Position numbers and translations under genes: made by a program. The notes beneath the pieces were generated by a model that saw nothing but the letters and a program-made list of their open reading frames with translations, had not been told where the DNA came from and did no database searches. This document shows, in pieces, positions 56,595 through 64,000 of a DNA stretch of 64,000 nt. Where the stretch lies: assembly GCA_023245035.1 (NCBI GenBank), contig JAHFLD010000003.1:55736-119735 (forward strand), in the 5' to 3' direction. Source of the stretch: Candidatus Harrisonbacteria bacterium (GTDB lineage Bacteria; Patescibacteriota; Minisyncoccia; UBA6257; 1-14-0-10-40-38). Positions within the stretch are counted from its first letter, which is position 1. Each line of letters starts with the position of its first letter.

Positions 56595-57035
56595 ATGACA
56601 AATCAAGTTCAAGAATTGCGGACACAGACCGGAGCCGGAGTGATGGATTGCAAGAAGGCGCTTGAGGATGCCGGTGGAGATCTAGCTAAGGCTTTGGTTT
56701 TAATTAAACAGCGCGGTTTGCTTAAGGCCGAGAAAAAAGCGGAAAGAGTTACCAGCGCCGGTTTGTTGGAGTCTTATATTCACAACGGACGGGTTGGTGT
56801 TTTACTGGAATTGCGTTGCGAAACGGATTTTGTGGCGCGAACGGATTCGGTTAAAGAGCTGGCTAAAAACTTGACTATGCAAGTTGCGGCGATGGGTGCC
56901 ACGAGTGTCGGTGAACTTTTACTCCAGCCGTTTATTCGCGATGCCTCAATGACGGTGGAGATGTTAGTTAAAGGCGTGGTGGCCAAGGTGGGGGAGAATA
57001 TTCGGATAGAGCGTTTTACGCGTTACGAACTTTAG
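56595..57035 (+). CDS. tsf: Elongation factor Ts (short form)
   Basis: LRTQTGAGVMDCKKALEDAGGDLAKA...LLKAEKKA.R.TSAGL matches the EF-Ts N-terminal UBA-like domain plus a single core subdomain. 146 aa, directly after rpsB. Confidence 0.85.
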   Translation: MTNQVQELRTQTGAGVMDCKKALEDAGGDLAKALVLIKQRGLLKAEKKAERVTSAGLLESYIHNGRVGVLLELRCETDFVARTDSVKELAKNLTMQVAAMGATSVGELLLQPFIRDASMTVEMLVKGVVAKVGENIRIERFTRYEL

Positions 57036-57041
57036 CACCCC

Positions 57042-57371
57042 ATGTACGAATTCATTCTTCAGCTTCTAGTTTTTTCCAGTTTGAGTTTTGCTATCTATAT
57101 TTTGGCGCGCGCTTTGCCGCGAGTAAATTCAGAGGAGGATCGGGCGGCCGCTTCCGGGAGGCTTGATCGAATTGTCGCTAAGATTCCGTTTCATAAGATC
57201 GACGTTCAACTGACCTCTTTTTTGGAGAAATTTTTGCGGCGGGTTAGGGTGGTTTTGCTTAAAGTGGATAACCTGCTTTCGCATCATGTCCGCCGTTTAC
57301 GGGCGAGCAAGGAGGAGCAATCTTCGGAGAAGCGTTCCGGTCTTTTTGGCGGTGATAACAAGTCGGAGTAG
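57042..57371 (+). CDS. Hypothetical small membrane protein
   Basis: 109 aa with one N-terminal TM helix. No motif recognised. Confidence 0.35.
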   Translation: MYEFILQLLVFSSLSFAIYILARALPRVNSEEDRAAASGRLDRIVAKIPFHKIDVQLTSFLEKFLRRVRVVLLKVDNLLSHHVRRLRASKEEQSSEKRSGLFGGDNKSE

Positions 57372-57415
57372 CTTGCTGTTTTGGTTATTTTTTCTTACAC
57401 TGGTTACTGTTCTCT

Positions 57416-57499
57416 GGGCAGGTGGCAGAGCGGTCAAATGCACGTGGCTGTAGACCACGCGCCCTTGTGGCTACGGGGGTTCGAATCCCTCCCTGCCCA
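57416..57499 (+). tRNA. tRNA-Tyr (anticodon GTA), long variable arm, no encoded CCA
   Basis: Acceptor GGGCAGG/CCTGCCC, anticodon loop CTGTAGA, long extra arm, T-loop GGTTCGAATCC. Confidence 0.85.
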
Positions 57500-57795
57500 C
57501 ATCTTTCTTGTTTTTTTGTGCGTACCTTTGTTGCTCGTTGTGTTTCCTGCTAAGCAGGATATGCCTTGATACTGCTTAGCAGATTACTCACTCGCGCCTC
57601 GGTTCGCGCAAAAAAATATCAAGAAATCTTCGGGGTTAAAATAAAATTTATCTAGTTGGATTGGGAGGGTGTTTTTCGCTTCGGCTGGATGTTGTCCGGC
57701 GAGCTTGCCTTTCTCTGCTTATTTAACTTACTATTGGCCTAGTTCTTTTAGCTCGTTCTTTGACACGATTCTTTTTACTAAGGAGATCTTTTCGA

Positions 57796-59466
57796 ATGTT
57801 CATACCGGAGTTCAAACCCCAGCCGGGAGTCGCCCTGCTGTCGGTTTACGACAAGACTGGAATTGTGGAGTTTGCCAATGGCCTGATTGCCATGGGCTGG
57901 AAGATTATCGCTTCCGGCGGTACCGCCAAGGTTTTGCGCGAAGCCGGTTTGTTGATCGGGGACGTGTCGGAACTGGTTCATGGCGAGCCGATTCTCGGTC
58001 ATCGCGTGGTAACGCTTTCGCGCGAGATTCATGCCGGACTCTTGGCGCAAGACACTCACGAGCACGCGCTGGAACTTAAGAAGCTGGGAATTCCGCGGAT
58101 TGACTTGGTTTGCGTGGACTTGTACCCGCTTAGGGAGGCGATTGAAGCTCCGAATCGAACGATTCACTCGGTGATTGAGATGACCGATATTGGCGGGCCG
58201 ACGCTTTTGCGGAGCGCCGCCAAGGGTAACCGGATTGTGATTTCCCGAAGCATCGACCGGAGCGCCGTGCTTAGATGGCTTCAAAAAGGGATGCCAAACA
58301 AGGAGCAGATGCTGCGCCATTTGGCCGCCAGAGCGGAAGATGAAGTGGCAAGGTATTGCACCTGGTCGGCTTGGTTTCTTAGCGATGGGCGTTTTGATGG
58401 GTTGCTAGGCGAGCGGGCATTGAATTGCAAGTATGGCGAGAATCCTTGGCAGGAGGGGGCGGCGTTCTATACCGCCGGCAAGAAGGTTGACCATCTGGCG
58501 CTTGATAAGTTTATGGCCAGGCTCGGAACCGATCCGAGTTACAACAATTTGTGCGACTTGGATCGCGCGTTGCAGACCATGACGCACATGGCTGTCGCTC
58601 TTAATGCCGGGCCTTTAGCCATATCCGAGAAGAGTATCAAGCTGGCTTTGGCCGTTAAGCATGGTAATCCGTGCGGCGCGGCTTGGGGTTTTGGTTTGAC
58701 TGAAGAGGCGGATGTCGTTCGGCGAATGGTAGCGGGTGATCCGCGGGCAATCTTTGGCGGCCTGGTGATGACTAACTTTGTTTTGACGGATGCTTGCGTT
58801 GAGTTGCTTTTGCATCACGGCTTGCCTAGGGGACAGAAGCGGGTTTTGGATGTTGTGGCCGCGGCGGGTATTACTGAGGAAGCTCTTAAGCTATTGGAGC
58901 GTAAAAACGGCAAGTGTCGAGTGATGATTAATTCTGATTTGGATGACTGGTCATTGCTTGCTCGCTTGGACGATGCTCCGCGTTTTAGGATGGTGCGCGG
59001 CGGGTTCTTGGCGCAACCGAACTACGTCTTCGCGCTTCGCGATTGGGACCAGTATCAATTTGCTTGGCCAAAGAAGACTACTTCCGAAGAAAAGCTTCGC
59101 CTGATAGAAGATATGTTTATGGCGTGGGCGATCGGATCTACAAGCAACAGCAATACCGTGACATTGGTTCGCGACCGGACTTTGATTGGCAATGGAGTCG
59201 GTCAGCAAGATCGGGTTAGCTGTGCTGAACTGGCCGTGAAGCGAGCGCGGTCGGCGGGACACGCTACCAAGGGTGCCGTAGCTTACAGTGACAGCTTCTT
59301 CCCGTTTGTTGACGGTCCAGAGGTTTTGATCAAGGCCGGTATTGCCGCCATTATGGTATCAAGCGGTTCGGTGAACGATGAGAAGGTGGTGAAGTTGTGC
59401 GCGAGACGGGGGATTGGGTTGCTGATGCTTCCGGATGCCGAGTGCAGGGGTTTCTTTGGTCATTGA
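57796..59466 (+). CDS. purH: Bifunctional AICAR transformylase / IMP cyclohydrolase
   Basis: MGS-like N-terminal domain (ALLSVYDKTGIVEFA; IASGGTAKVL) and AICARFT domain blocks (DIGGPT; YGENPWQ; SYNNL.D; KHGNPCG; FGG; YSDSFFPF). AGGAG ribosome-binding site 10 nt upstream. Confidence 0.9.
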   Translation: MFIPEFKPQPGVALLSVYDKTGIVEFANGLIAMGWKIIASGGTAKVLREAGLLIGDVSELVHGEPILGHRVVTLSREIHAGLLAQDTHEHALELKKLGIPRIDLVCVDLYPLREAIEAPNRTIHSVIEMTDIGGPTLLRSAAKGNRIVISRSIDRSAVLRWLQKGMPNKEQMLRHLAARAEDEVARYCTWSAWFLSDGRFDGLLGERALNCKYGENPWQEGAAFYTAGKKVDHLALDKFMARLGTDPSYNNLCDLDRALQTMTHMAVALNAGPLAISEKSIKLALAVKHGNPCGAAWGFGLTEEADVVRRMVAGDPRAIFGGLVMTNFVLTDACVELLLHHGLPRGQKRVLDVVAAAGITEEALKLLERKNGKCRVMINSDLDDWSLLARLDDAPRFRMVRGGFLAQPNYVFALRDWDQYQFAWPKKTTSEEKLRLIEDMFMAWAIGSTSNSNTVTLVRDRTLIGNGVGQQDRVSCAELAVKRARSAGHATKGAVAYSDSFFPFVDGPEVLIKAGIAAIMVSSGSVNDEKVVKLCARRGIGLLMLPDAECRGFFGH

Positions 59467-59574
59467 AAGTGGTTTCAAAGCTCGGGTTTTTACCCGGGCT
59501 TTTTTATTGGCGCATCACTTTCTATTTATCGTTTTTTGTGGTATTTTTTTTCTGTTCTGTGAGAGATTTTTTTT

Positions 59575-59645
59575 GCCCCTTTAGCTCAATGGCAGAGCGA
59601 TGCTTTTGTAAAGCATGGATGTCAGTTCGATTCTGACAAGGGGCT
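59575..59645 (+). tRNA. tRNA-Thr (anticodon TGT), no encoded CCA
   Basis: Acceptor GCCCCTT/AAGGGGC, D-arm GCTCAATGGCAGAGC, anticodon stem ATGCT/AGCAT with loop TTTGTAA, T-loop GTTCGATTC. Confidence 0.85.
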
Positions 59646-59684
59646 CAAATTTATTAGTTTTGAGTACCTTCACCAAAGGGGGTA

Positions 59685-60128
59685 TTGTGGTATTATGTAG
59701 AATGCATGGATACTTGTATGGGTTGCAGAAAAACTCTTTCTGAGCGTCATCAAGTTAAATATTGTTCGAATAAATGTCAGACTGATTATCAATATAAATA
59801 CTGGGTGAAGCGCTGGAAGAATGGTTTTGTGAGTGGGGGTGTCGGAATTACTGTAAGAACTGTTTCTTCTCATTTAAAGCGGTACTTGAGCGAAAAATTT
59901 AATGATCGCTGTTCTATGTGTTGTTGGAATAAAAGACATCCAATAACTGGCGTTGTCCCTTTAGAAATTGATCACATCGATGGGAATGCAGAGAATAATA
60001 TTGAAAGAAATTTGAGACTACTTTGTCCGAATTGCCATGCCTTGACCCCTTTTTATAAGAATCTTAATAAGGGCAATGGGAGAAAATGGCGTATGGATAA
60101 ATATCTTCGCAACAAACCTACTAAATAA
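59685..60128 (+). CDS. HNH endonuclease
   Basis: Two CxxC pairs and the HNH core EIDHIDGN...N...NLRLLCPNCHA. The gene is markedly AT-rich relative to its surroundings and starts 40 nt after tRNA-Thr(UGU). Confidence 0.75.
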   Translation: MWYYVECMDTCMGCRKTLSERHQVKYCSNKCQTDYQYKYWVKRWKNGFVSGGVGITVRTVSSHLKRYLSEKFNDRCSMCCWNKRHPITGVVPLEIDHIDGNAENNIERNLRLLCPNCHALTPFYKNLNKGNGRKWRMDKYLRNKPTK

Positions 60129-60173
60129 TACTTAAGATTTGAGAGCCGACTCCAGGTTTAGCTTGGTCTCTCT

Positions 60174-60719
60174 TTGTCTCTGTTCAATATTCATATGAAC
60201 CAGCCCCTTGTAATCAAAACTTTTGTGGCGATAAAAAATATCCGCTATTTGAATGTTTTTAACCGCCCAGCGCGAGGCCAGGCGATGGTCGGTATAATTA
60301 TATTTTCATTTTCGATTTGGTTTCTTGCTAATTCGGAGTTGGGGATCGGATTATATCTTTTTTTTGGTGTGGTTTTTGCGGTGACTTTTTATATCGCGGT
60401 GGTCCAGGTAATTAGGTTAAGACCCGGAATTATTGAGGCCACGGCCCGGGGGAATCTATTTGAGACCGAGAGATCTTACGATGGAACCAAAACTTTTTCT
60501 TCAAAAATACCCTCCATTGGCGGAGTTGTTGGCGTGGCTTTGTACGCCTTTCTTTCGCGTTTTGAGAATTCTGTTGTGGCTGGAGCCTTGCTTGGAATTA
60601 TTATGACCATAGGGCCTGCTTTGATTTTAGGCGTTAGTCTTGCCTATATTTATCTGGAACATAAGATTCAACGCCAGATATTGGTGCAGAGATATGAGGT
60701 TCTGAAAGTTAAGGAGTGA
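60174..60719 (+). CDS. Hypothetical membrane protein
   Basis: 181 aa with 4 hydrophobic helices. No motif recognised. Confidence 0.4.
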   Translation: MSLFNIHMNQPLVIKTFVAIKNIRYLNVFNRPARGQAMVGIIIFSFSIWFLANSELGIGLYLFFGVVFAVTFYIAVVQVIRLRPGIIEATARGNLFETERSYDGTKTFSSKIPSIGGVVGVALYAFLSRFENSVVAGALLGIIMTIGPALILGVSLAYIYLEHKIQRQILVQRYEVLKVKE

Positions 60720-60816
60720 GCTCGGGGAATAACTTGGAGCTATCAAGCGAGTGCGCTCATTGAAAGATTTGGCTATTTTACCTATACTCTCTGGAGTTCT
60801 TTGTGATTGCTGTTTT

Positions 60817-60871
60817 GCCAATGTAGCTCAGATGGTAGACCCGCCTGCCGGACGGGCAGGGCAACTCCATG
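60817..60871 (+). pseudogene. Partial 5' copy of tRNA-Thr(GGU): nt 1-34 interrupted by a 21-nt palindromic insert
   Basis: 60817-60839 is identical to nt 1-23 of the intact tRNA at 61120, and 60861-60871 is identical to nt 24-34 (GCAACTCCATG). The 21-nt insert CCCGCCTGCCGGACGGGCAGG (60840-60860) forms a hairpin. The sequence then diverges into the GIY-YIG ORF. Confidence 0.8.
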
Positions 60872-61129
60872 TATTATGTTTATGTTCTTAAAAGCTTAAG
60901 TGATCAAAAGCATTACACTGGAATGTCTATTGATCTTGAAAAAAGACTACGAAAGCATAATCGCGGCGCCAAGGGAACTCCATCAACTCGATCTCGCGGC
61001 CCGTTCTCATTAGTTTATTGCGAGAGAGTAGCTACTAGGGTAGAAGCAAGAAGAAGGGAGAAGTTTTTGAAATCAGGATTTGGCAGGGAGTTTATAAAGA
61101 ATTTTGTTGAAAAAGATTTGCCAATGTAG
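60869..61129 (+). CDS. Minimal GIY-YIG nuclease-domain protein (86 aa)
   Basis: MYYVYVLKS...HYTGMS.DLEKRLRKHN matches the GIY-YIG catalytic core (GIY..YIG..R..H.N). The start codon is the ATG of the tRNA anticodon-loop copy, and the stop TAG lies inside the first 10 nt of the intact tRNA-Thr. AT-rich. Confidence 0.7.
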   Translation: MYYVYVLKSLSDQKHYTGMSIDLEKRLRKHNRGAKGTPSTRSRGPFSLVYCERVATRVEARRREKFLKSGFGREFIKNFVEKDLPM

Positions 61130-61195
61130 CTCAGATGGTAGAGCAACTCCATGGTAAGGAGTAGGTCGCCGGTTCAATTCCGGCCATTGGCTCCA
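61120..61195 (+). tRNA. tRNA-Thr (anticodon GGT), CCA encoded
   Basis: GCCAATG TA GCTCAGATGGTAGAGC A ACTCC ATGGTAA GGAGT AGGTC GCCGGTTCAATTCCGGC CATTGGC T CCA. Confidence 0.9.
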
Positions 61196-61394
61196 AGATC
61201 AGCGCCGTAATTTCACCGGTTCCCGGTTGCCGCTTTGGGGCGGCATTGCGATTTCTAAACGCTCAAGCCTTCGCGTAGAAATCGGGAACAATTCCGGCCA
61301 TTGGCTCCACCGGAAATGAAAGAAGGATGGGTCGGAGGGGTCGTTTTTTGTTTTTCTTGCTTTTTTGATCCCGATGTTTTAGAGTGTTCTAACT

Positions 61395-61565
61395 ATGTCC
61401 GAATCCAAGTTTTCTAAAAATCTCATTAAATTGCGCTGTGGCACCTGTAAGCGATTTAATTATTACACGCGCAAGAATGTGAAGCTGGTAACGCGCAAAA
61501 TTGAGTTGAGTAAGTTTTGCAAGTTTTGCCGGAAACATACCACCCACAAGGAGGCGAAGAGGTAG
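61395..61565 (+). CDS. rpmG: 50S ribosomal protein L33
   Basis: Translates to MSESKFSKNLIKLRCGTCKRFNYYTRKNVKLVTRKIELSKFCKFCRKHTTHKEAKR, the L33 CxxC...CxxC zinc ribbon. 56 aa, below the ORF-track cutoff. Confidence 0.8.
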   Translation: MSESKFSKNLIKLRCGTCKRFNYYTRKNVKLVTRKIELSKFCKFCRKHTTHKEAKR

Positions 61566-61681
61566 GATTTTTATTAAGTCTAGAAATATAGCGAGTTAGT
61601 TATCGCGGATTTTTTTTAGGGTCTTGGTTGCCTAGCTTTTTTGTTTGGGTTAGGCTTGTTATTGGGTATCTTTTATAGTCT

Positions 61682-61752
61682 GGGAGCTTAAGTAAGTGGC
61701 ATACTGGCGGTCTCCAAAACCGCACTCGGGGGTTCGATTCCCTCAGCTCCCG
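61682..61752 (+). tRNA. tRNA-Trp (anticodon CCA), no encoded CCA end
   Basis: Acceptor GGGAGCT/AGCTCCC, anticodon stem GCGGT/ACCGC with loop CTCCAAA, T-loop GGTTCGATTCC. Confidence 0.85.
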
Positions 61753-61760
61753 CAGTAGAT

Positions 61761-61964
61761 ATGAATTTCATTTGCTCAATTCTAGATGTTTTTATTATAC
61801 CGCTTAGCTATCTATTTATCATCCCTCTATCTTTGGGCATTGCGTATGATAGTCTAAAATCTAAAGATGAATCAAAACGAGAGAAGTTTTTTATTTTTGG
61901 CTTATTAGCTTGGTTTGTCGGTGGGCTGTCCTATGGTGAGTCGCCCGTTAGTTTTTGTTCTTGA
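61761..61964 (+). CDS. Hypothetical small AT-rich membrane protein
   Basis: 67 aa, two hydrophobic segments, AT-rich. Possibly spurious. Confidence 0.25.
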   Translation: MNFICSILDVFIIPLSYLFIIPLSLGIAYDSLKSKDESKREKFFIFGLLAWFVGGLSYGESPVSFCS

Positions 61965-62264
61965 TTTTTTTCTATTTGGCGTCCAGGTCTTATTTACTTT
62001 TTTTCTTATGGCGTGTTAGCTTTAATATAGCTTTTATTCTTATGAACAAAAAAACTAAAGTTGCTCGGAAGAAGCATCGCAGAAAGCAGGGGAGGAAAGT
62101 TCCTTCTTTGCGACATCGATAAACTAAGACCGCCCTATTGTGTTGGGGCGGTTTTAGTTTGGGATTAAAAAAAATTGTGCTGTTCCGTTTTTTAGGAAGC
62201 TCCGATGTTGCAATCGGAGCACTTGTTGTTTCTAAACTCGCTACGTTCGTTAAGAAAAACTAAG

Positions 62265-62336
62265 TGCGCGTGGAAGGAATCGAACCTTCGACCCCAGTCT
62301 TATCAGGACTGTGCTCTACCACTGAGCTACACGCGC
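62265..62336 (-). tRNA. tRNA-Ile (anticodon GAT)
   Basis: Reverse complement GCGCGTG TA GCTCAGTGGTAGAGC A CAGTC CTGATAA GACTG GGGTC GAAGGTTCGATTCCTTC CACGCGC A. Confidence 0.85.
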
Positions 62337-62378
62337 GTTATTTTTTTATGCTTTGCGTATTACGGGTGCTTGGTGGAT

Positions 62379-62597
62379 CTATTGTGGCGTAACATGATCC
62401 ACGGCCTGTTTGAGAGCCGAGACGTCCAAAGTTTCACCAATTTGGGTTTTTGGGGTTTTTCCCGAGAGTGCGTCGCTCGTTTCTCGCATGAGTGTTCGCA
62501 CTGATTGGATAGTATATCCCAGGAGAATTAAAAGTAAAATACTGGCGATTACCCAGAGTATGGTTTCGTTTCGCTTGGGCGTGATGTCTTTAAGCAT
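62379..62597 (-). CDS. Hypothetical small bitopic membrane protein
   Basis: 72 aa, one TM helix (ILWVIASILLLILLGYTI). Lies directly downstream of the PilO-like gene. Confidence 0.4.
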   Translation of the reverse strand: MLKDITPKRNETILWVIASILLLILLGYTIQSVRTLMRETSDALSGKTPKTQIGETLDVSALKQAVDHVTPQ

Positions 62598-62600
62598 AGA

Positions 62601-63191
62601 TTAATTTTTGGAAAAGAGTTTTCCGCTTACGGCCAACGAGGACTTATTTTCTTCGCCGCTCACATTGACGGAATCAAGACTCATAAGGTAGGGGAGTTTT
62701 TTTAACTTGTCCATAAAAGAGATCAAGGTTTCTATGGCGCCGTCGGTGGTTAATTGAAAGGCGATGCCGGGAAGCGAATTGTCTTCGGCTTCAAACTCGG
62801 TGCCTAAGGTCATCACGGCGTTCACTCCCAGCTTTTGCGCTTCCAGGCGAATTTCTTTGGGAACTTTTAAGAGGCGGTCGCGGGTTGGCAGAATTTGATT
62901 GAGAGTTGCCCGTTCTATTTCAGTTCCCCCAAAGGCTTTCTTTAGTTCCGCGAGATTGTTTACCGAATCCCCATAGGCGCCAATGGCGCGATTTTTTTCC
63001 ACAACCAGACTGATTTTATTGGCGGTTCCGGTTCGCAGAAAGATGGTGGCGGTAATAATCAGAATACCGACAAAAAAAGTGATGCCGATATGTGTCAGCA
63101 AGCGCATGCCAAAACTTGAGGCGCTTTTTTCGTTGGGCATTTTTTTTGAATAAGCCTTCCGCCGGATTAACTTTTCATAAAATCCAGTCAC
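62601..63191 (-). CDS. Hypothetical bitopic membrane protein, possible type IV pilus assembly PilN/PilO-like
   Basis: 196 aa: a short cytoplasmic N-terminus, one TM helix, then a periplasmic alpha/beta domain. Called from architecture only. Confidence 0.4.
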   Translation of the reverse strand: MTGFYEKLIRRKAYSKKMPNEKSASSFGMRLLTHIGITFFVGILIITATIFLRTGTANKISLVVEKNRAIGAYGDSVNNLAELKKAFGGTEIERATLNQILPTRDRLLKVPKEIRLEAQKLGVNAVMTLGTEFEAEDNSLPGIAFQLTTDGAIETLISFMDKLKKLPYLMSLDSVNVSGEENKSSLAVSGKLFSKN

Positions 63192-63252
63192 GGGGGTGAA
63201 AAGGATTAGGTAAAGAATTAGGCGGCGGGTCTAGTGAATGATAGCATATTTT

Positions 63253-64000
63253 TATGGAGGCTAATGAGGAGCGTTATTTTCACGCGCTCGCCGTCGCGCT
63301 TGACGGGAGCTATCGCGCCTTGCAGTCTTTGTCGGAAAAGCACGCTTCTTGGAAGAAGGCTTGGCTTGCGCTCGGACGACCGCATCAAGAAGTTGAGAAG
63401 TTGTGGCGCGAGGTTGCTCACACCGGAACGCGCTTGATATTGCGCAATGATCCGGAATTTCCGTCTTCTCTGTCGCAGATTCCCCAGCCGCCGTTGGCGC
63501 TTTACATTCGCGGGAAGCTTCCTGATTTTTCGAAGGCCATAGCGATTGTCGGGACTCGCCGAGCGACTGCGGAGGGCAGGGCGCTGGCTTCGTCTTTGGC
63601 CGAGGATTTTGTCCGCGCGGGTTTTGTGGTGGTAAGCGGATTGGCGTTGGGAATTGACGCCGCCGCTCATGAGGGCGCGGTCCGCGTCCAAGGTTCAACG
63701 GTGGCGGTGATCGCGAGCGGGGCGGATGTTATTTCTCCGCGACAAAATGAGCGTTTGGGCGAGTCGTTGCTCGCGCGAGGCGCCATTGTTTCGGAATATC
63801 CCTGCGGGTCTGAAGCCATTGCATATCGTTTTTTGGAGAGAAATAGGATTGTAAGCGGACTCGCTTTGGGAGTGGTGGTGATTGAAGCTCCGGAGTCTTC
63901 GGGGGCGCTCGTAACCGCGAGATTTGCCCTGGAGCAGGGAAGGGATGTTTTTGTGGTTCCGGGGAGCGTGAGACATCCGAATTACCGAGGTTCTCACGCT
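63253..64000 (+). CDS. dprA: DNA processing protein DprA (Smf), 3'-truncated by the window end
   Basis: In-frame ATG at 63253 with no stop to the window end. Translation contains the DprA Rossmann-fold blocks (LYIRG....AIVGTRRAT..G; GFVVVSGLALGIDAAAHEGA; STVAVIASG; RNRIVSGLALGVVVIEA.ESSGALVTARFALEQGRDVF.VPG). Not in the supplied ORF track because it lacks a stop. Confidence 0.75.

What the first reader, a model, noticed from the sequence alone, without database searches (positions are those of the whole stretch)
60817..61195. GIY-YIG nuclease ORF grafted onto a partial copy of tRNA-Thr(GGU): start codon is the anticodon-loop ATG, stop lies inside the intact tRNA
The intact tRNA-Thr(GGU) at 61120-61195 is preceded 300 bp upstream by a copy of its nt 1-34, which is split after nt 23 by a 21-nt GC hairpin. 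The copy ends at ...ACTCCATG, and that ATG (tRNA loop positions 32-34) is the start codon of an 86-aa AT-rich ORF carrying only a GIY-YIG catalytic core. The ORF's last codons (TTG CCA ATG TAG) are nt 1-10 of the intact tRNA. Position 34/35 is the canonical insertion point of tRNA group I introns, and GIY-YIG proteins are classical homing endonucleases. Unlike a split tRNA intron, though, the downstream tRNA here is complete. The arrangement looks like the footprint of a tiny mobile nuclease cassette that targets the tRNA-Thr anticodon region and duplicates its 5' half, or a decayed intron-homing event. The nuclease lacks any DNA-binding domain, so it may depend on another factor or be a domesticated remnant.
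Basis: seen in the sequence. Interest (0 to 1): 0.75.

Follow-up and report, generated by a model that had tools for sequence, protein, structure and literature searches.

The report
Hairpin-nuclease cassette nested in tRNA gene
The tRNA-Thr gene carries one copy of a widespread but apparently undescribed selfish-looking cassette: a minimal GIY-YIG nuclease gene and a conserved GC hairpin that sit inside a broken duplicate of the tRNA, while an intact tRNA copy is kept next to it.

Summary
tRNA-Thr(GGU) nt 1-34 is repeated 303 bp upstream and split after nt 23 by a 21-nt GC hairpin. The 86-aa GIY-YIG ORF starts on the copied ATG and stops on tRNA nt 8-10.

It is not a one-off. Among 92 homologous ORF copies from at least 12 phyla, 41 show the same layout at 23 different tRNA species. 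Another 14 show the mirror layout. In 23 of the 41, the splitting hairpin has the core of a 20-nt palindrome, CCTGCCTGCCGGCAGGCAGG; the window carries a variant. ORF lineages track tRNA identity across phyla.

A strain variant lacks this block.

The protein is UPF0213/Slx1-like, not I-TevI-like, and no intron RNA is present. The closest known system is the Ssn family of hairpin-guided single-strand DNA nucleases (2025). That work does not mention tRNA nesting, and its hairpin motif is not matched here.

Best reading: a hairpin-plus-nuclease selfish cassette, co-transcribed with the tRNA and spread by recombination on tRNA homology. The mechanism is inferred. No empty site for the ORF was found.

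The parts
60760..60788 (+). Promoter-like site (TTGAAA, 17-nt spacer, TATACT), about 28 nt upstream of the broken tRNA copy. It is the presumed native tRNA promoter that now drives fragment, ORF and tRNA.
   Evidence: best match in the region (10/12), but the number of sites found is not above the shuffle expectation. No such site lies between the ORF and the intact tRNA. In 7 of 12 Bacteroidota/Chlorobiota relatives a TAnnTTTG box lies 18-35 nt upstream of the broken copy, against 1 of 12 upstream of the intact tRNA and 4% of random windows.
60814..60839 (+). Left block of the broken tRNA copy: TTT plus tRNA-Thr nt 1-23.
   Evidence: D4: 26/26 identical to 61117-61142.
60840..60860 (+). 21-nt GC hairpin, CCCG + CCTGCC + GGACG + GGCAGG. 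It is a variant of the family palindrome CCTGCCTGCCGGCAGGCAGG (PAL) and is inserted cleanly between tRNA nt 23 and 24, with no target duplication.
   Evidence: fold; PAL in relatives; the register of 4-nt tail plus 6-bp stem has 4 of 6 pairs with compensatory changes, and the window hairpin fits it. L003 carries a G-to-A SNP at 60856 that weakens the stem.
60861..60871 (+). Right block of the broken copy: tRNA nt 24-34. Its last three bases are the ORF start codon.
   Evidence: D2.
60869..61129 (+). 86-aa single-domain GIY-YIG nuclease gene. The stop codon TAG is tRNA nt 8-10.
   Evidence: Pfam 1.3e-13; catalytic residues conserved; AlphaFold2 pLDDT 86; closest to UPF0213 BH0048 and Slx1.
61120..61195 (+). 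Intact tRNA-Thr(GGU) with encoded CCA. It has no promoter-like site of its own.
   Evidence: (70.3 bits).
61196..61288 (+). 93-nt spacer with three hairpins, including the GC hairpin TGCCGCTTTGGGGCGGCA at 61228-61245, and degenerate T-arm-like pieces (CGCCG, CCGGTTC).
   Evidence: The 114-nt block 61196-61309 is absent from strain variant L003.
61289..61309 (+). Exact copy of tRNA nt 56-76 (CAATTCCGGCCATTGGCTCCA). With the spacer it forms a hairpin-split 3' partial copy.
   Evidence: D7: 21/21. Polymorphic against L003. Comparable 3' copies occur in L222, L033, L077 and L082.

Best explanation
Window 60814-61309 holds one copy of a widespread cassette nested in a tRNA gene. The cassette combines a minimal GIY-YIG nuclease gene with a GC hairpin that lies inside a truncated duplicate of the tRNA. 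An intact tRNA copy is kept immediately downstream, so the host loses nothing.

Shown:
- The architecture and its recurrence at many tRNAs and phyla.
- Conservation of the hairpin in sequence and in pairing.
- Conservation of the nuclease catalytic residues.
- The match between ORF lineage and tRNA identity.
- Strain polymorphism of the 3' block.

Inferred:
1. The native tRNA promoter upstream of the broken copy transcribes fragment, hairpin, ORF and tRNA as one RNA. The tRNA is then cut out by normal processing.
2. The protein works like the Ssn enzymes. It binds its hairpin when the DNA is single-stranded and nicks nearby.
3. The resulting breaks are repaired by recombination or template switching between tRNA sequences. 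This creates the partial tRNA duplications and local tandem repeats.
4. The cassette reaches new genomes by homologous recombination. The conserved tRNA sequence on both sides serves as portable homology, which keeps each lineage tied to one tRNA type.

The 20-nt palindrome also exists as many solo copies. These resemble non-autonomous derivatives, as REP sequences are to RAYT transposases.
For: Recurrence:
- 41 (+3 probable) of 92 non-redundant homologous ORF copies have [5' tRNA copy split by a hairpin][ORF][intact tRNA]. Another 14 (+2) have the mirror form [tRNA][ORF][hairpin][3' copy].
- In 43 of 48 such loci, which still include redundant contigs of the same cassettes, the upstream 160 nt hold exact copies of 8 nt or more of that same tRNA. 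The next 160 nt are almost empty of them.

Hairpin:
- A PAL core is present in 23 of 41 Form A loci. PAL is exactly identical in six phyla although the ORFs are only 45-70% identical.
- It always lies 10-48 nt before the ATG.
- 36 of 39 hairpin insertions lie in the D-arm.
- Compensatory changes occur in 4 of 6 stem pairs, and 0 of 500 shuffles reach this.

Lineage fidelity:
- The nearest-neighbour ORF sits at a tRNA of the same amino acid in 41 of 60 cases (permutation mean 5.3, 0 of 5000 reach it).
- 10 of 19 cross-phylum pairs also match by amino acid.

Repeat boundary and promoter:
- The repeat starts at tRNA nt 1, with 0-5 nt of leader, in 30 of 37 loci.
- Promoter boxes lie upstream of the broken copy and not upstream of the intact tRNA.

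Protein:
- Fold and profile are closest to UPF0213 and Slx1, a structure-specific nuclease.
- Catalytic residues are invariant.

Analogy:
- Ssn single-domain GIY-YIG enzymes bind a hairpin repeat and cut single-stranded DNA just upstream. Their genes are flanked by the hairpins, which are dispersed in hundreds of copies (PMC11893778).

Palindrome dispersal:
- More than 120 metagenome stretches hold PAL. About 80 of 85 sites examined are solo.
- Flanking local direct repeats are enriched: 24% against 8%, p=5e-4.

Dynamics:
- Tandem arrays occur in L061, L034, L041 and L077.
- The 114-nt 3' block is present in the window and absent in L003.
Against: - No cassette-free (empty) tRNA-Thr site was found in a relative. 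The neighbouring membrane protein has no homologues, the nearest purH relative's contig ends before the locus, and more distant relatives lack synteny.
- Identical proteins (P0001, P0038, P0021) each occur in a single genomic context, so there is no sign of very recent jumping.
- Nuclease activity and its substrate are untested.
- The published Ssn hairpin motif matches only 1 of 92 ORF flanks and nothing in this locus. The Ssn reference protein was not available for comparison.
- The window hairpin is a degenerate variant and the only copy in 64 kb.
- Breakpoints inside the tRNA are not confined to loops, so a simple rule of cutting the cloverleaf loops fails.
- How the first duplication at a new tRNA type arises is not explained.
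- It is not shown that solo PALs occur in the same genomes as the ORF.
Confidence: 0.6

Rival explanations
1. Domesticated host system. The nuclease and its hairpin serve the cell, for example by controlling recombination or transformation at tRNA loci, or by blocking tRNA genes as integration sites. They are placed in the tRNA operon for expression. The tRNA fragments are by-products and not signs of mobility.
For: The Ssn authors propose domestication for NTS-ssnA-NTS and show an effect on transformation (PMC11893778). Identical proteins sit in one stable context each. The catalytic residues are conserved across a very large family: 7,831 clusters at 50% identity with E<=1e-10.
Against: Distribution is patchy over 23 tRNA species. 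Tandem and degraded copies exist. Some ORFs are nested in hairpins inside unrelated protein genes. Cross-phylum relatives share the same tRNA type. All of this fits horizontal spread better than a housekeeping role. There is no PADLOC match.
Confidence: 0.2
2. Passive history. A tandem tRNA duplication arose first. One copy decayed after unrelated insertions of a dispersed palindrome and of a small ORF. The nuclease has no causal role in the arrangement.
For: L022 keeps tRNA nt 1-71 of the broken copy. L077 has tandem full-length tRNA-Leu copies carrying only the palindrome. L161 and L167 have fragment-plus-hairpin next to a tRNA without an ORF, and their fragments differ in sequence from the intact tRNA. 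Most palindrome copies are far from any ORF.
Against: Independent accidents would not give the same order, the same strand, the hairpin 10-48 nt before the ATG and a repeat boundary at tRNA nt 1 in 41 loci at 23 tRNAs. In most loci the broken copy is 100% identical to the intact tRNA and is not decayed.
Confidence: 0.1
3. Footprint of an integrase-type element. The partial tRNA copies are attL/attR-like repeats left by a genomic island or prophage, and the ORF is leftover cargo.
For: Integrative elements commonly target tRNA genes and leave partial tRNA copies (PMC9897764). L006 has a serine recombinase just after its tRNA-Asn. An HNH ORF and a low-GC orphan gene lie upstream in the window.
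Against: The unit between the repeats is only about 255 bp and encodes no recombinase. The 5' part of the tRNA is repeated. The arrangement is conserved family-wide with a specific hairpin. Only 8 relatives were found in 2.9 million viral contigs.
Confidence: 0.05
4. Decayed group I intron with its homing endonuclease in the tRNA anticodon loop.
For: The junction lies at tRNA nt 34/35. There is a weak match to the group I intron endonuclease model TIGR01453: 18.7 bits against a cut-off of 56. tRNA group I introns are known in Patescibacteria (PMC13011429, listed).
Against: No Rfam intron match at E<=1. The downstream tRNA is complete. Junction positions vary from nt 16 to 71 among relatives. 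The fold is closer to UPF0213/Slx1 than to I-TevI.
Confidence: 0.03

Closest known systems
Ssn nucleases with NTS/SRM hairpin repeats (Chenal et al. 2025, Nat Commun, PMC11893778)
   Same: A single-domain GIY-YIG protein of about 80-100 aa with no DNA-binding domain. The gene lies next to a 20-50 nt GC hairpin that has an orienting 5' tail. The same hairpin is dispersed as many solo copies. The published activity is to bind the hairpin in single-stranded DNA and cut just upstream.
   Different: The paper has no occurrence of the word tRNA in its text, so it does not describe tRNA nesting or partial tRNA duplication. The hairpin sequence differs, with no HGTCWY tag, and the published motif fails here. 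The hosts here are mainly Patescibacteria, Bacteroidota and allies. Protein membership in cd10448 could not be tested, and the best solved relatives are UPF0213 proteins.
Phage T4 SegB, a free-standing GIY-YIG homing endonuclease in a tRNA gene cluster (PMC2330249)
   Same: A GIY-YIG gene lying among tRNA genes, not in an intron. It uses conserved tRNA sequence as its target and is inherited together with flanking tRNA DNA.
   Different: SegB has a DNA-binding region and recognises a 27-bp double-stranded site including the T-psi-C motif. It has no hairpin element and no duplicated tRNA fragment, and it is a phage protein. Here the protein is the catalytic domain only and the element is chromosomal.
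REP/REPIN sequences and RAYT transposases (PMC3116915, PMC3733652; listed, not read)
   Same: From my own knowledge: short palindromic repeats dispersed in many copies, plus a single-copy nuclease gene flanked by them. Solo copies greatly outnumber the gene-linked copies.
   Different: RAYTs are HUH/Y1 transposase relatives and not GIY-YIG proteins. REPs are not nested in tRNA genes.
Integrative elements that target tRNA genes and leave partial tRNA copies (PMC9897764)
   Same: A partial tRNA copy next to an intact tRNA, with tRNA function preserved after insertion.
   Different: Those elements are kilobases long and carry an integrase. As I recall they usually repeat the 3' part of the tRNA. 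Here the unit is about 255 bp with a nuclease and a hairpin.
UPF0213 proteins (BH0048, EF2693) and Slx1
   Same: Closest sequence and fold: 1zg2 at E=1.8e-12 with 38% identity, and Slx1 with TM-score 0.63-0.71 and rmsd about 2 angstroms.
   Different: The UPF0213 structures are deposited only as hypothetical proteins. Slx1 needs Slx4 and acts on branched DNA in eukaryotes. I know of no report of a tRNA or hairpin association for either.

Membership tests
Ssn (hairpin-guided single-strand DNA nucleases, cd10448) | Single-domain GIY-YIG protein of about 80-150 aa with catalytic residues intact | tested here: met
   86 aa. The Pfam GIY-YIG match covers residues 1-71. Y5, Y16, R26, H30 and E64 are invariant in 65 homologues. 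The AlphaFold2 model has a GIY-YIG fold.
Ssn (hairpin-guided single-strand DNA nucleases, cd10448) | Gene flanked by a 20-50 nt hairpin-forming repeat | tested here: met
   A hairpin lies 8 nt before the ATG in the window. In relatives PAL lies 10-48 nt before the ATG, and 23 of 41 Form A loci carry the PAL core. A second GC hairpin lies after the tRNA at 61228-61245.
Ssn (hairpin-guided single-strand DNA nucleases, cd10448) | The hairpin matches the published SRM motif HGTCWY... | tested here: not met
   The regex matches 1 of 92 ORF flanks (0.2 expected) and gives no hit in 60300-61700.
Ssn (hairpin-guided single-strand DNA nucleases, cd10448) | The same hairpin is dispersed in many copies in the host genome | tested here: inconclusive
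   PAL occurs in more than 120 metagenome stretches, mostly solo. The 64-kb window holds only the one variant. Co-occurrence with the gene within single genomes was not testable.
Ssn (hairpin-guided single-strand DNA nucleases, cd10448) | Sequence membership: BLASTP to N. meningitidis SsnA CAX49033.1 at E<1e-10, or top CDD hit cd10448 | not testable with these tools
   Neither the SsnA sequence nor the CDD profiles are available. The best solved relatives are UPF0213 proteins.
Ssn (hairpin-guided single-strand DNA nucleases, cd10448) | Cleaves single-stranded DNA next to the hairpin, and does not cleave double-stranded DNA or RNA | not testable with these tools
   This needs biochemistry.
Free-standing homing endonuclease genes (T4 Seg/Mob type) | The empty allele in relatives carries the cleavage site, and the gene is inherited by conversion with its flanks | tested here: inconclusive
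   No empty tRNA-Thr site was found. Indirect support comes from lineage-tRNA fidelity across phyla.
Free-standing homing endonuclease genes (T4 Seg/Mob type) | A nuclease domain joined to a DNA-binding region that reads a long double-stranded site | tested here: not met
   Only the catalytic domain is present.
Group I intron with homing endonuclease in a tRNA | A group I ribozyme core interrupting the tRNA | tested here: not met
   No Rfam intron match at E<=1 in 57000-64000, and the tRNA is uninterrupted.
Integrase-mediated island at a tRNA (att duplication) | A tyrosine or serine recombinase within the element bounded by the repeats | tested here: not met
   The roughly 255 bp between the repeats encode only the GIY-YIG ORF.
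REP/RAYT | A HUH/Y1 (IS200/IS605-like) transposase associated with the palindromes | tested here: not met
   The associated protein is GIY-YIG.

The most novel reading that the evidence does not exclude
These cassettes may be an unrecognised class of bacterial mobile element. An Ssn-like single-strand nuclease and its hairpin would home into tRNA genes across phyla. The tRNA itself would serve as portable homology, and an intact tRNA would be regenerated by partial duplication. This would be intron-less, integrase-less homing. The 20-nt palindrome would spread as the smallest known non-autonomous derivative.
Probability: 0.35. Interest if true: 0.85.

Novelty: new variant of a known kind. Interest (0 to 1): 0.7.

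Why it matters
tRNA genes are the classic landing sites for integrase-borne islands and for group I introns. Here a roughly 250-bp nuclease gene plus a 20-nt hairpin appears to occupy the same niche by a different route, keeping the tRNA alive through a built-in partial duplication.

If the model holds, it would do three things:
- It would give the newly described hairpin-guided GIY-YIG single-strand nucleases a concrete genomic lifestyle.
- It would explain many partial tRNA genes and mis-annotated small ORFs whose C-termini read into tRNAs, in Patescibacteria, Bacteroidota and other phyla.
- It would supply new natural enzyme-hairpin pairs for single-strand DNA tools.

The family is large: 7,831 clusters at 50% identity with E<=1e-10.

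Tried and rejected
Empty site for the ORF cassette (not found):
- Exact look-ups of the ORF and of the 67-aa downstream gene found only filled contigs.
- The contig of the purH relative at 83% identity ends 41 nt after purH.
- purH relatives at 56-57% identity lack synteny.
- The adjacent membrane protein has no homologues.

Ideas tested and dropped:
- Group I intron: no Rfam hit.
- Defence system or phage gene: no PADLOC or PHROG match for the ORF.
- Phage carriage: only 8 relatives among viral contigs, and I judge most to lie near contig ends.
- Plasmid carriage: one weak hit.
- A symmetric 8-bp palindrome as the selected structure: no covariation, whereas the asymmetric register of 4-nt tail plus 6-bp stem has it.
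- A rule that breakpoints lie only in cloverleaf loops: hairpin sites cluster in the D-arm, but they also fall in stems, and the ends of the broken copy are scattered.
- A target motif or fixed target duplication for solo palindromes: the flanks show no motif.
- Recent multi-site jumping: identical proteins occur in one context each.

Literature:
- The palindrome strings gave no relevant paper.
- Searches for a GIY-YIG link to tRNA fragments found nothing describing this layout.
- The held library is incomplete, so prior description elsewhere cannot be excluded.
Full report
**1. The observation**

ARAGORN and Rfam place tRNA-Thr(GGU) at 61120-61195. The 26 nt at 60814-60839 (TTT plus tRNA nt 1-23) are identical to 61117-61142. 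After a 21-nt insert (60840-60860, CCCGCCTGCCGGACGGGCAGG), the 11 nt at 60861-60871 equal tRNA nt 24-34.

The ORF 60869-61129 starts on the copied ATG and ends TTG CCA ATG TAG, so its stop codon is tRNA nt 8-10. It is a GIY-YIG domain (Pfam E=1.3e-13). The insert folds as a 6-bp stem with a 5-nt loop.

The locus is reproducible. Contigs L001 and L002 from other samples are identical over it, L003 carries it with two SNPs, and the exact protein is on 10 contigs from three sources. No other copy of the hairpin or the ORF is in the 64-kb window. The organism is a member of Patescibacteria, judged from its purH relatives.

**2. A family architecture**

The ORF has 82 close homologues of 78-125 aa. 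A profile of 65 of them finds 28,092 clusters at 50% identity with E<=1e-3, and 7,831 with E<=1e-10. A scan of one genome per species confirmed 550 relatives, and 80 loci were fetched.

I classified 92 non-redundant ORF copies:
- 41 (+3 probable) are Form A, as in the window: a 5' copy of the tRNA split by a hairpin, then the ORF, then the intact tRNA on the same strand.
- 14 (+2) are the mirror Form B: intact tRNA, ORF, hairpin, 3' copy of the tRNA.
- 8 have the ORF nested between the arms of a hairpin inside unrelated genes.
- The remaining 24 are at contig ends (6) or unclassified (18). Several of the unclassified copies are still linked to a tRNA.

Form A occurs at 23 anticodon species and in Patescibacteria, Bacteroidota, Chlorobiota, Planctomycetota, Omnitrophota, Gammaproteobacteria and others.

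In 43 of 48 loci with a tRNA just downstream (this count still includes redundant contigs of the same cassettes), the 160 nt before the ATG contain exact copies of that same tRNA, most starting at nt 1. The next 160 nt are nearly empty of them.

The stop codon often falls inside the tRNA. The overlap is 10 nt, as in the window, in 11 independent loci. This explains the C-terminal tails reading SSVGRA in the alignment.

**3. The hairpin**

In 22 of 83 non-redundant loci the insert is, within 3 mismatches, the 20-nt palindrome CCTGCCTGCCGGCAGGCAGG (PAL). In every one of these loci a PAL lies 10-48 nt before the ATG, and a few loci carry extra copies further downstream. PAL is exactly identical in six phyla, although the proteins are only 45-70% identical. 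A looser core pattern is present in 23 of 41 Form A loci. Another 10 carry a CCGCC-type hairpin, which is also the type found in Form B.

Ten sequence variants support an asymmetric unit: a 4-nt tail (CCTG), a 6-bp stem and a 4-nt loop. Four of the six pairs show compensatory changes, and 0 of 500 shuffles reach this. The symmetric 8-bp register shows none. This set of variants is small and hand-picked. The window hairpin (CCCG + CCTGCC + GGACG + GGCAGG) fits the asymmetric unit. It shares its ends with the hairpin of its nearest relative, L006.

The hairpin sits in the D-arm in 36 of 39 cases but at varying nucleotides. The broken copy ends 7-16 nt further on in most loci.

**4. The palindrome as a dispersed repeat**

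Of 85 sites examined, about 80 are solo, far from any family ORF or tRNA. Many lie in the loop of a pre-existing hairpin or terminator, or in AT-rich repeats.

Solo sites are flanked by local direct repeats more often than control positions: 24% against 8% have at least 8 nt, p=5e-4. They show no target motif.

L077 has two full-length tRNA-Leu copies that carry only the palindrome in the D-loop, beside an intact copy. The palindrome is also found in isolate genomes (Zunongwangia). I therefore do not consider it a sequencing artefact.

**5. The protein**

Y5, Y16, R26, H30 and E64 are invariant. The AlphaFold2 model is confident (pLDDT 86).

The closest solved relatives are the UPF0213 proteins BH0048 and EF2693, then Slx1. 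The I-TevI catalytic domain and UvrC are more distant. No NCBIfam model passes its cut-off, and there is no PADLOC or PHROG match. Only 8 relatives were found in viral contigs.

**6. Signs of spread and turnover**

The nearest-neighbour ORF from another locus sits at a tRNA for the same amino acid in 41 of 60 cases (permutation mean 5.3; 0 of 5000 permutations reach 41). It sits at the same anticodon in 26 of 60 cases (permutation mean 2.3). Ten of 19 cross-phylum pairs also match by amino acid. An example is the tRNA-Leu cassettes of Planctomycetota, Patescibacteria, Bacteroidota and Omnitrophota at 64-71% identity. The window ORF is closest to tRNA-Asn cassettes (64-65% identity), whose D-arm resembles that of tRNA-Thr.

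The repeat begins at tRNA nt 1, with 0-5 nt of leader, in 30 of 37 loci. The longer overlaps are tandem cassettes. Tandem arrays occur in L061, L034 and L041.

In strain variant L003 the cassette is kept, but the 114-nt block 61196-61309 is absent. A different insert of about 150 nt, ending in another tRNA 3' repeat, is present instead. So the tRNA's 3' flank is turning over within the species.

Against recent activity, identical proteins are found in one context each. No empty site for the ORF cassette was found.

**7. Expression**

The best sigma-70-like site in the region (TTGAAA, 17-nt spacer, TATACT; 60760-60788) lies about 28 nt before the broken copy, and none lies before the intact tRNA. 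The scan as a whole is not above its shuffle expectation.

In 7 of 12 Bacteroidota/Chlorobiota Form A loci a TAnnTTTG box lies 18-35 nt upstream of the broken copy. From my own knowledge this is the Bacteroidetes -7 promoter consensus. The figure is 1 of 12 upstream of the intact tRNA and 4% for random windows.

This suggests, but does not show, that the native tRNA promoter transcribes fragment, hairpin, ORF and tRNA together.

**8. Comparison with what is known**

The closest published system is the Ssn family (PMC11893778). These are single-domain GIY-YIG proteins of about 94 aa. They bind a hairpin repeat carrying an orienting 5' tail and cut single-stranded DNA just upstream. Their genes are flanked by the hairpins, which are dispersed in hundreds of copies. 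The authors note the likeness to insertion sequences and to REP/RAYT.

That paper has no occurrence of the word tRNA in its text. Its degenerate hairpin motif matches 1 of 92 flanks here and nothing in the window. Protein membership in cd10448 could not be tested.

T4 SegB is a free-standing GIY-YIG homing endonuclease among tRNA genes that reads a tRNA motif. It has a DNA-binding part and no hairpin or tRNA duplication. Partial tRNA genes are known as footprints of integrating elements, but no recombinase is present here.

Searches for the palindrome string and for GIY-YIG with tRNA fragments found no description of this layout. The held library is incomplete.

**9. Verdict**

The intron idea is not supported.

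The most likely account is a selfish hairpin-plus-nuclease cassette of the Ssn kind that lives inside tRNA genes. It would be expressed from the tRNA promoter, made harmless by a built-in tRNA duplication, and spread by recombination on tRNA homology. Confidence is about 0.6. The architecture, conservation and lineage pattern are shown. The enzyme activity, the origin of the duplication and the transfer route are inferred.

I rate it a new variant of a known kind, with interest 0.7.

Noticed in passing
window 59575-60128: An HNH endonuclease ORF (147 aa, 59685-60128) follows tRNA-Thr(UGU) (59575-59646) by 38 nt. It matches phage HNH families (PHROG 2.5e-16) and a PADLOC homing-endonuclease model (8.4e-10). 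A second tRNA in the same stretch therefore also has a nuclease gene next to it. No tRNA fragment repeat was seen there.
   Followed up: partly
window 59500-60800: A low-GC stretch (35-47%, against about 55% in purH) lies between the two tRNA-Thr genes. It holds the HNH ORF and a 144-181 aa predicted membrane protein with no homologue other than itself among 5.8 billion proteins. It may be a foreign insertion.
   Followed up: partly
window 61196-61309 versus L003 471-626: The 114-nt block (93-nt spacer plus the copy of tRNA nt 56-76) is absent in a strain variant from another sample. That variant has its own insert of about 150 nt with degenerate T-arm pieces. The insert ends in a repeat of TCCGGCCATTGGCTCCA plus CAAATG.
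   Followed up: yes
L077 2400-3260 (Ferruginibacter MAG): The ORF is flanked on both sides by palindrome-split tRNA-Leu(GAG) 5' fragments. An intact tRNA-Leu follows, and then two full-length tRNA-Leu copies that each carry the 20-nt palindrome in the D-loop and have their own terminator.
   Followed up: partly
L066, L069, L074, L087, L036 (ORF at about 2501, or 606 in L087): The GIY-YIG ORF sits between the arms of a hairpin (CCCCGTGAAATA ... TATTTCACGGGG). At least in L069 and L087 the hairpin is inserted inside a gene that I judged by eye to encode a four-helix-bundle (23S rRNA intervening-sequence) protein. This is a tRNA-free context for the same protein family.
   Followed up: no
L161 640-1145 and L167 1-150 (metagenome contigs): The palindrome-split 5' fragment differs in sequence from the adjacent intact tRNA: a Lys-UUU-like fragment before tRNA-Lys(CUU), and two different Val-GAC alleles. 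ORF-less units of fragment, palindrome and tRNA also exist. The fragment is therefore not always a copy of the neighbouring tRNA.
   Followed up: partly
L068 2320-2375; L105, L108, L152 (solo palindromes): The 20-nt palindrome is often found in the loop of a pre-existing hairpin or terminator, giving a hairpin within a hairpin. This could reflect target choice or merely where insertions are tolerated.
   Followed up: partly
L222 2744-2940: This is a third layout. The ORF starts 5 nt after dnaJ with no upstream tRNA fragment. tRNA-Lys(UUU) follows, and then a tandem copy of tRNA nt 27-74 plus trailer, with two GC hairpins in the anticodon loop.
   Followed up: no
window 61395-61565: The L33 (rpmG) gene appears to have been missed by the gene calls stored for the public contigs. 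They list a 49-aa ORF on the opposite strand instead (one search compared).
   Followed up: no
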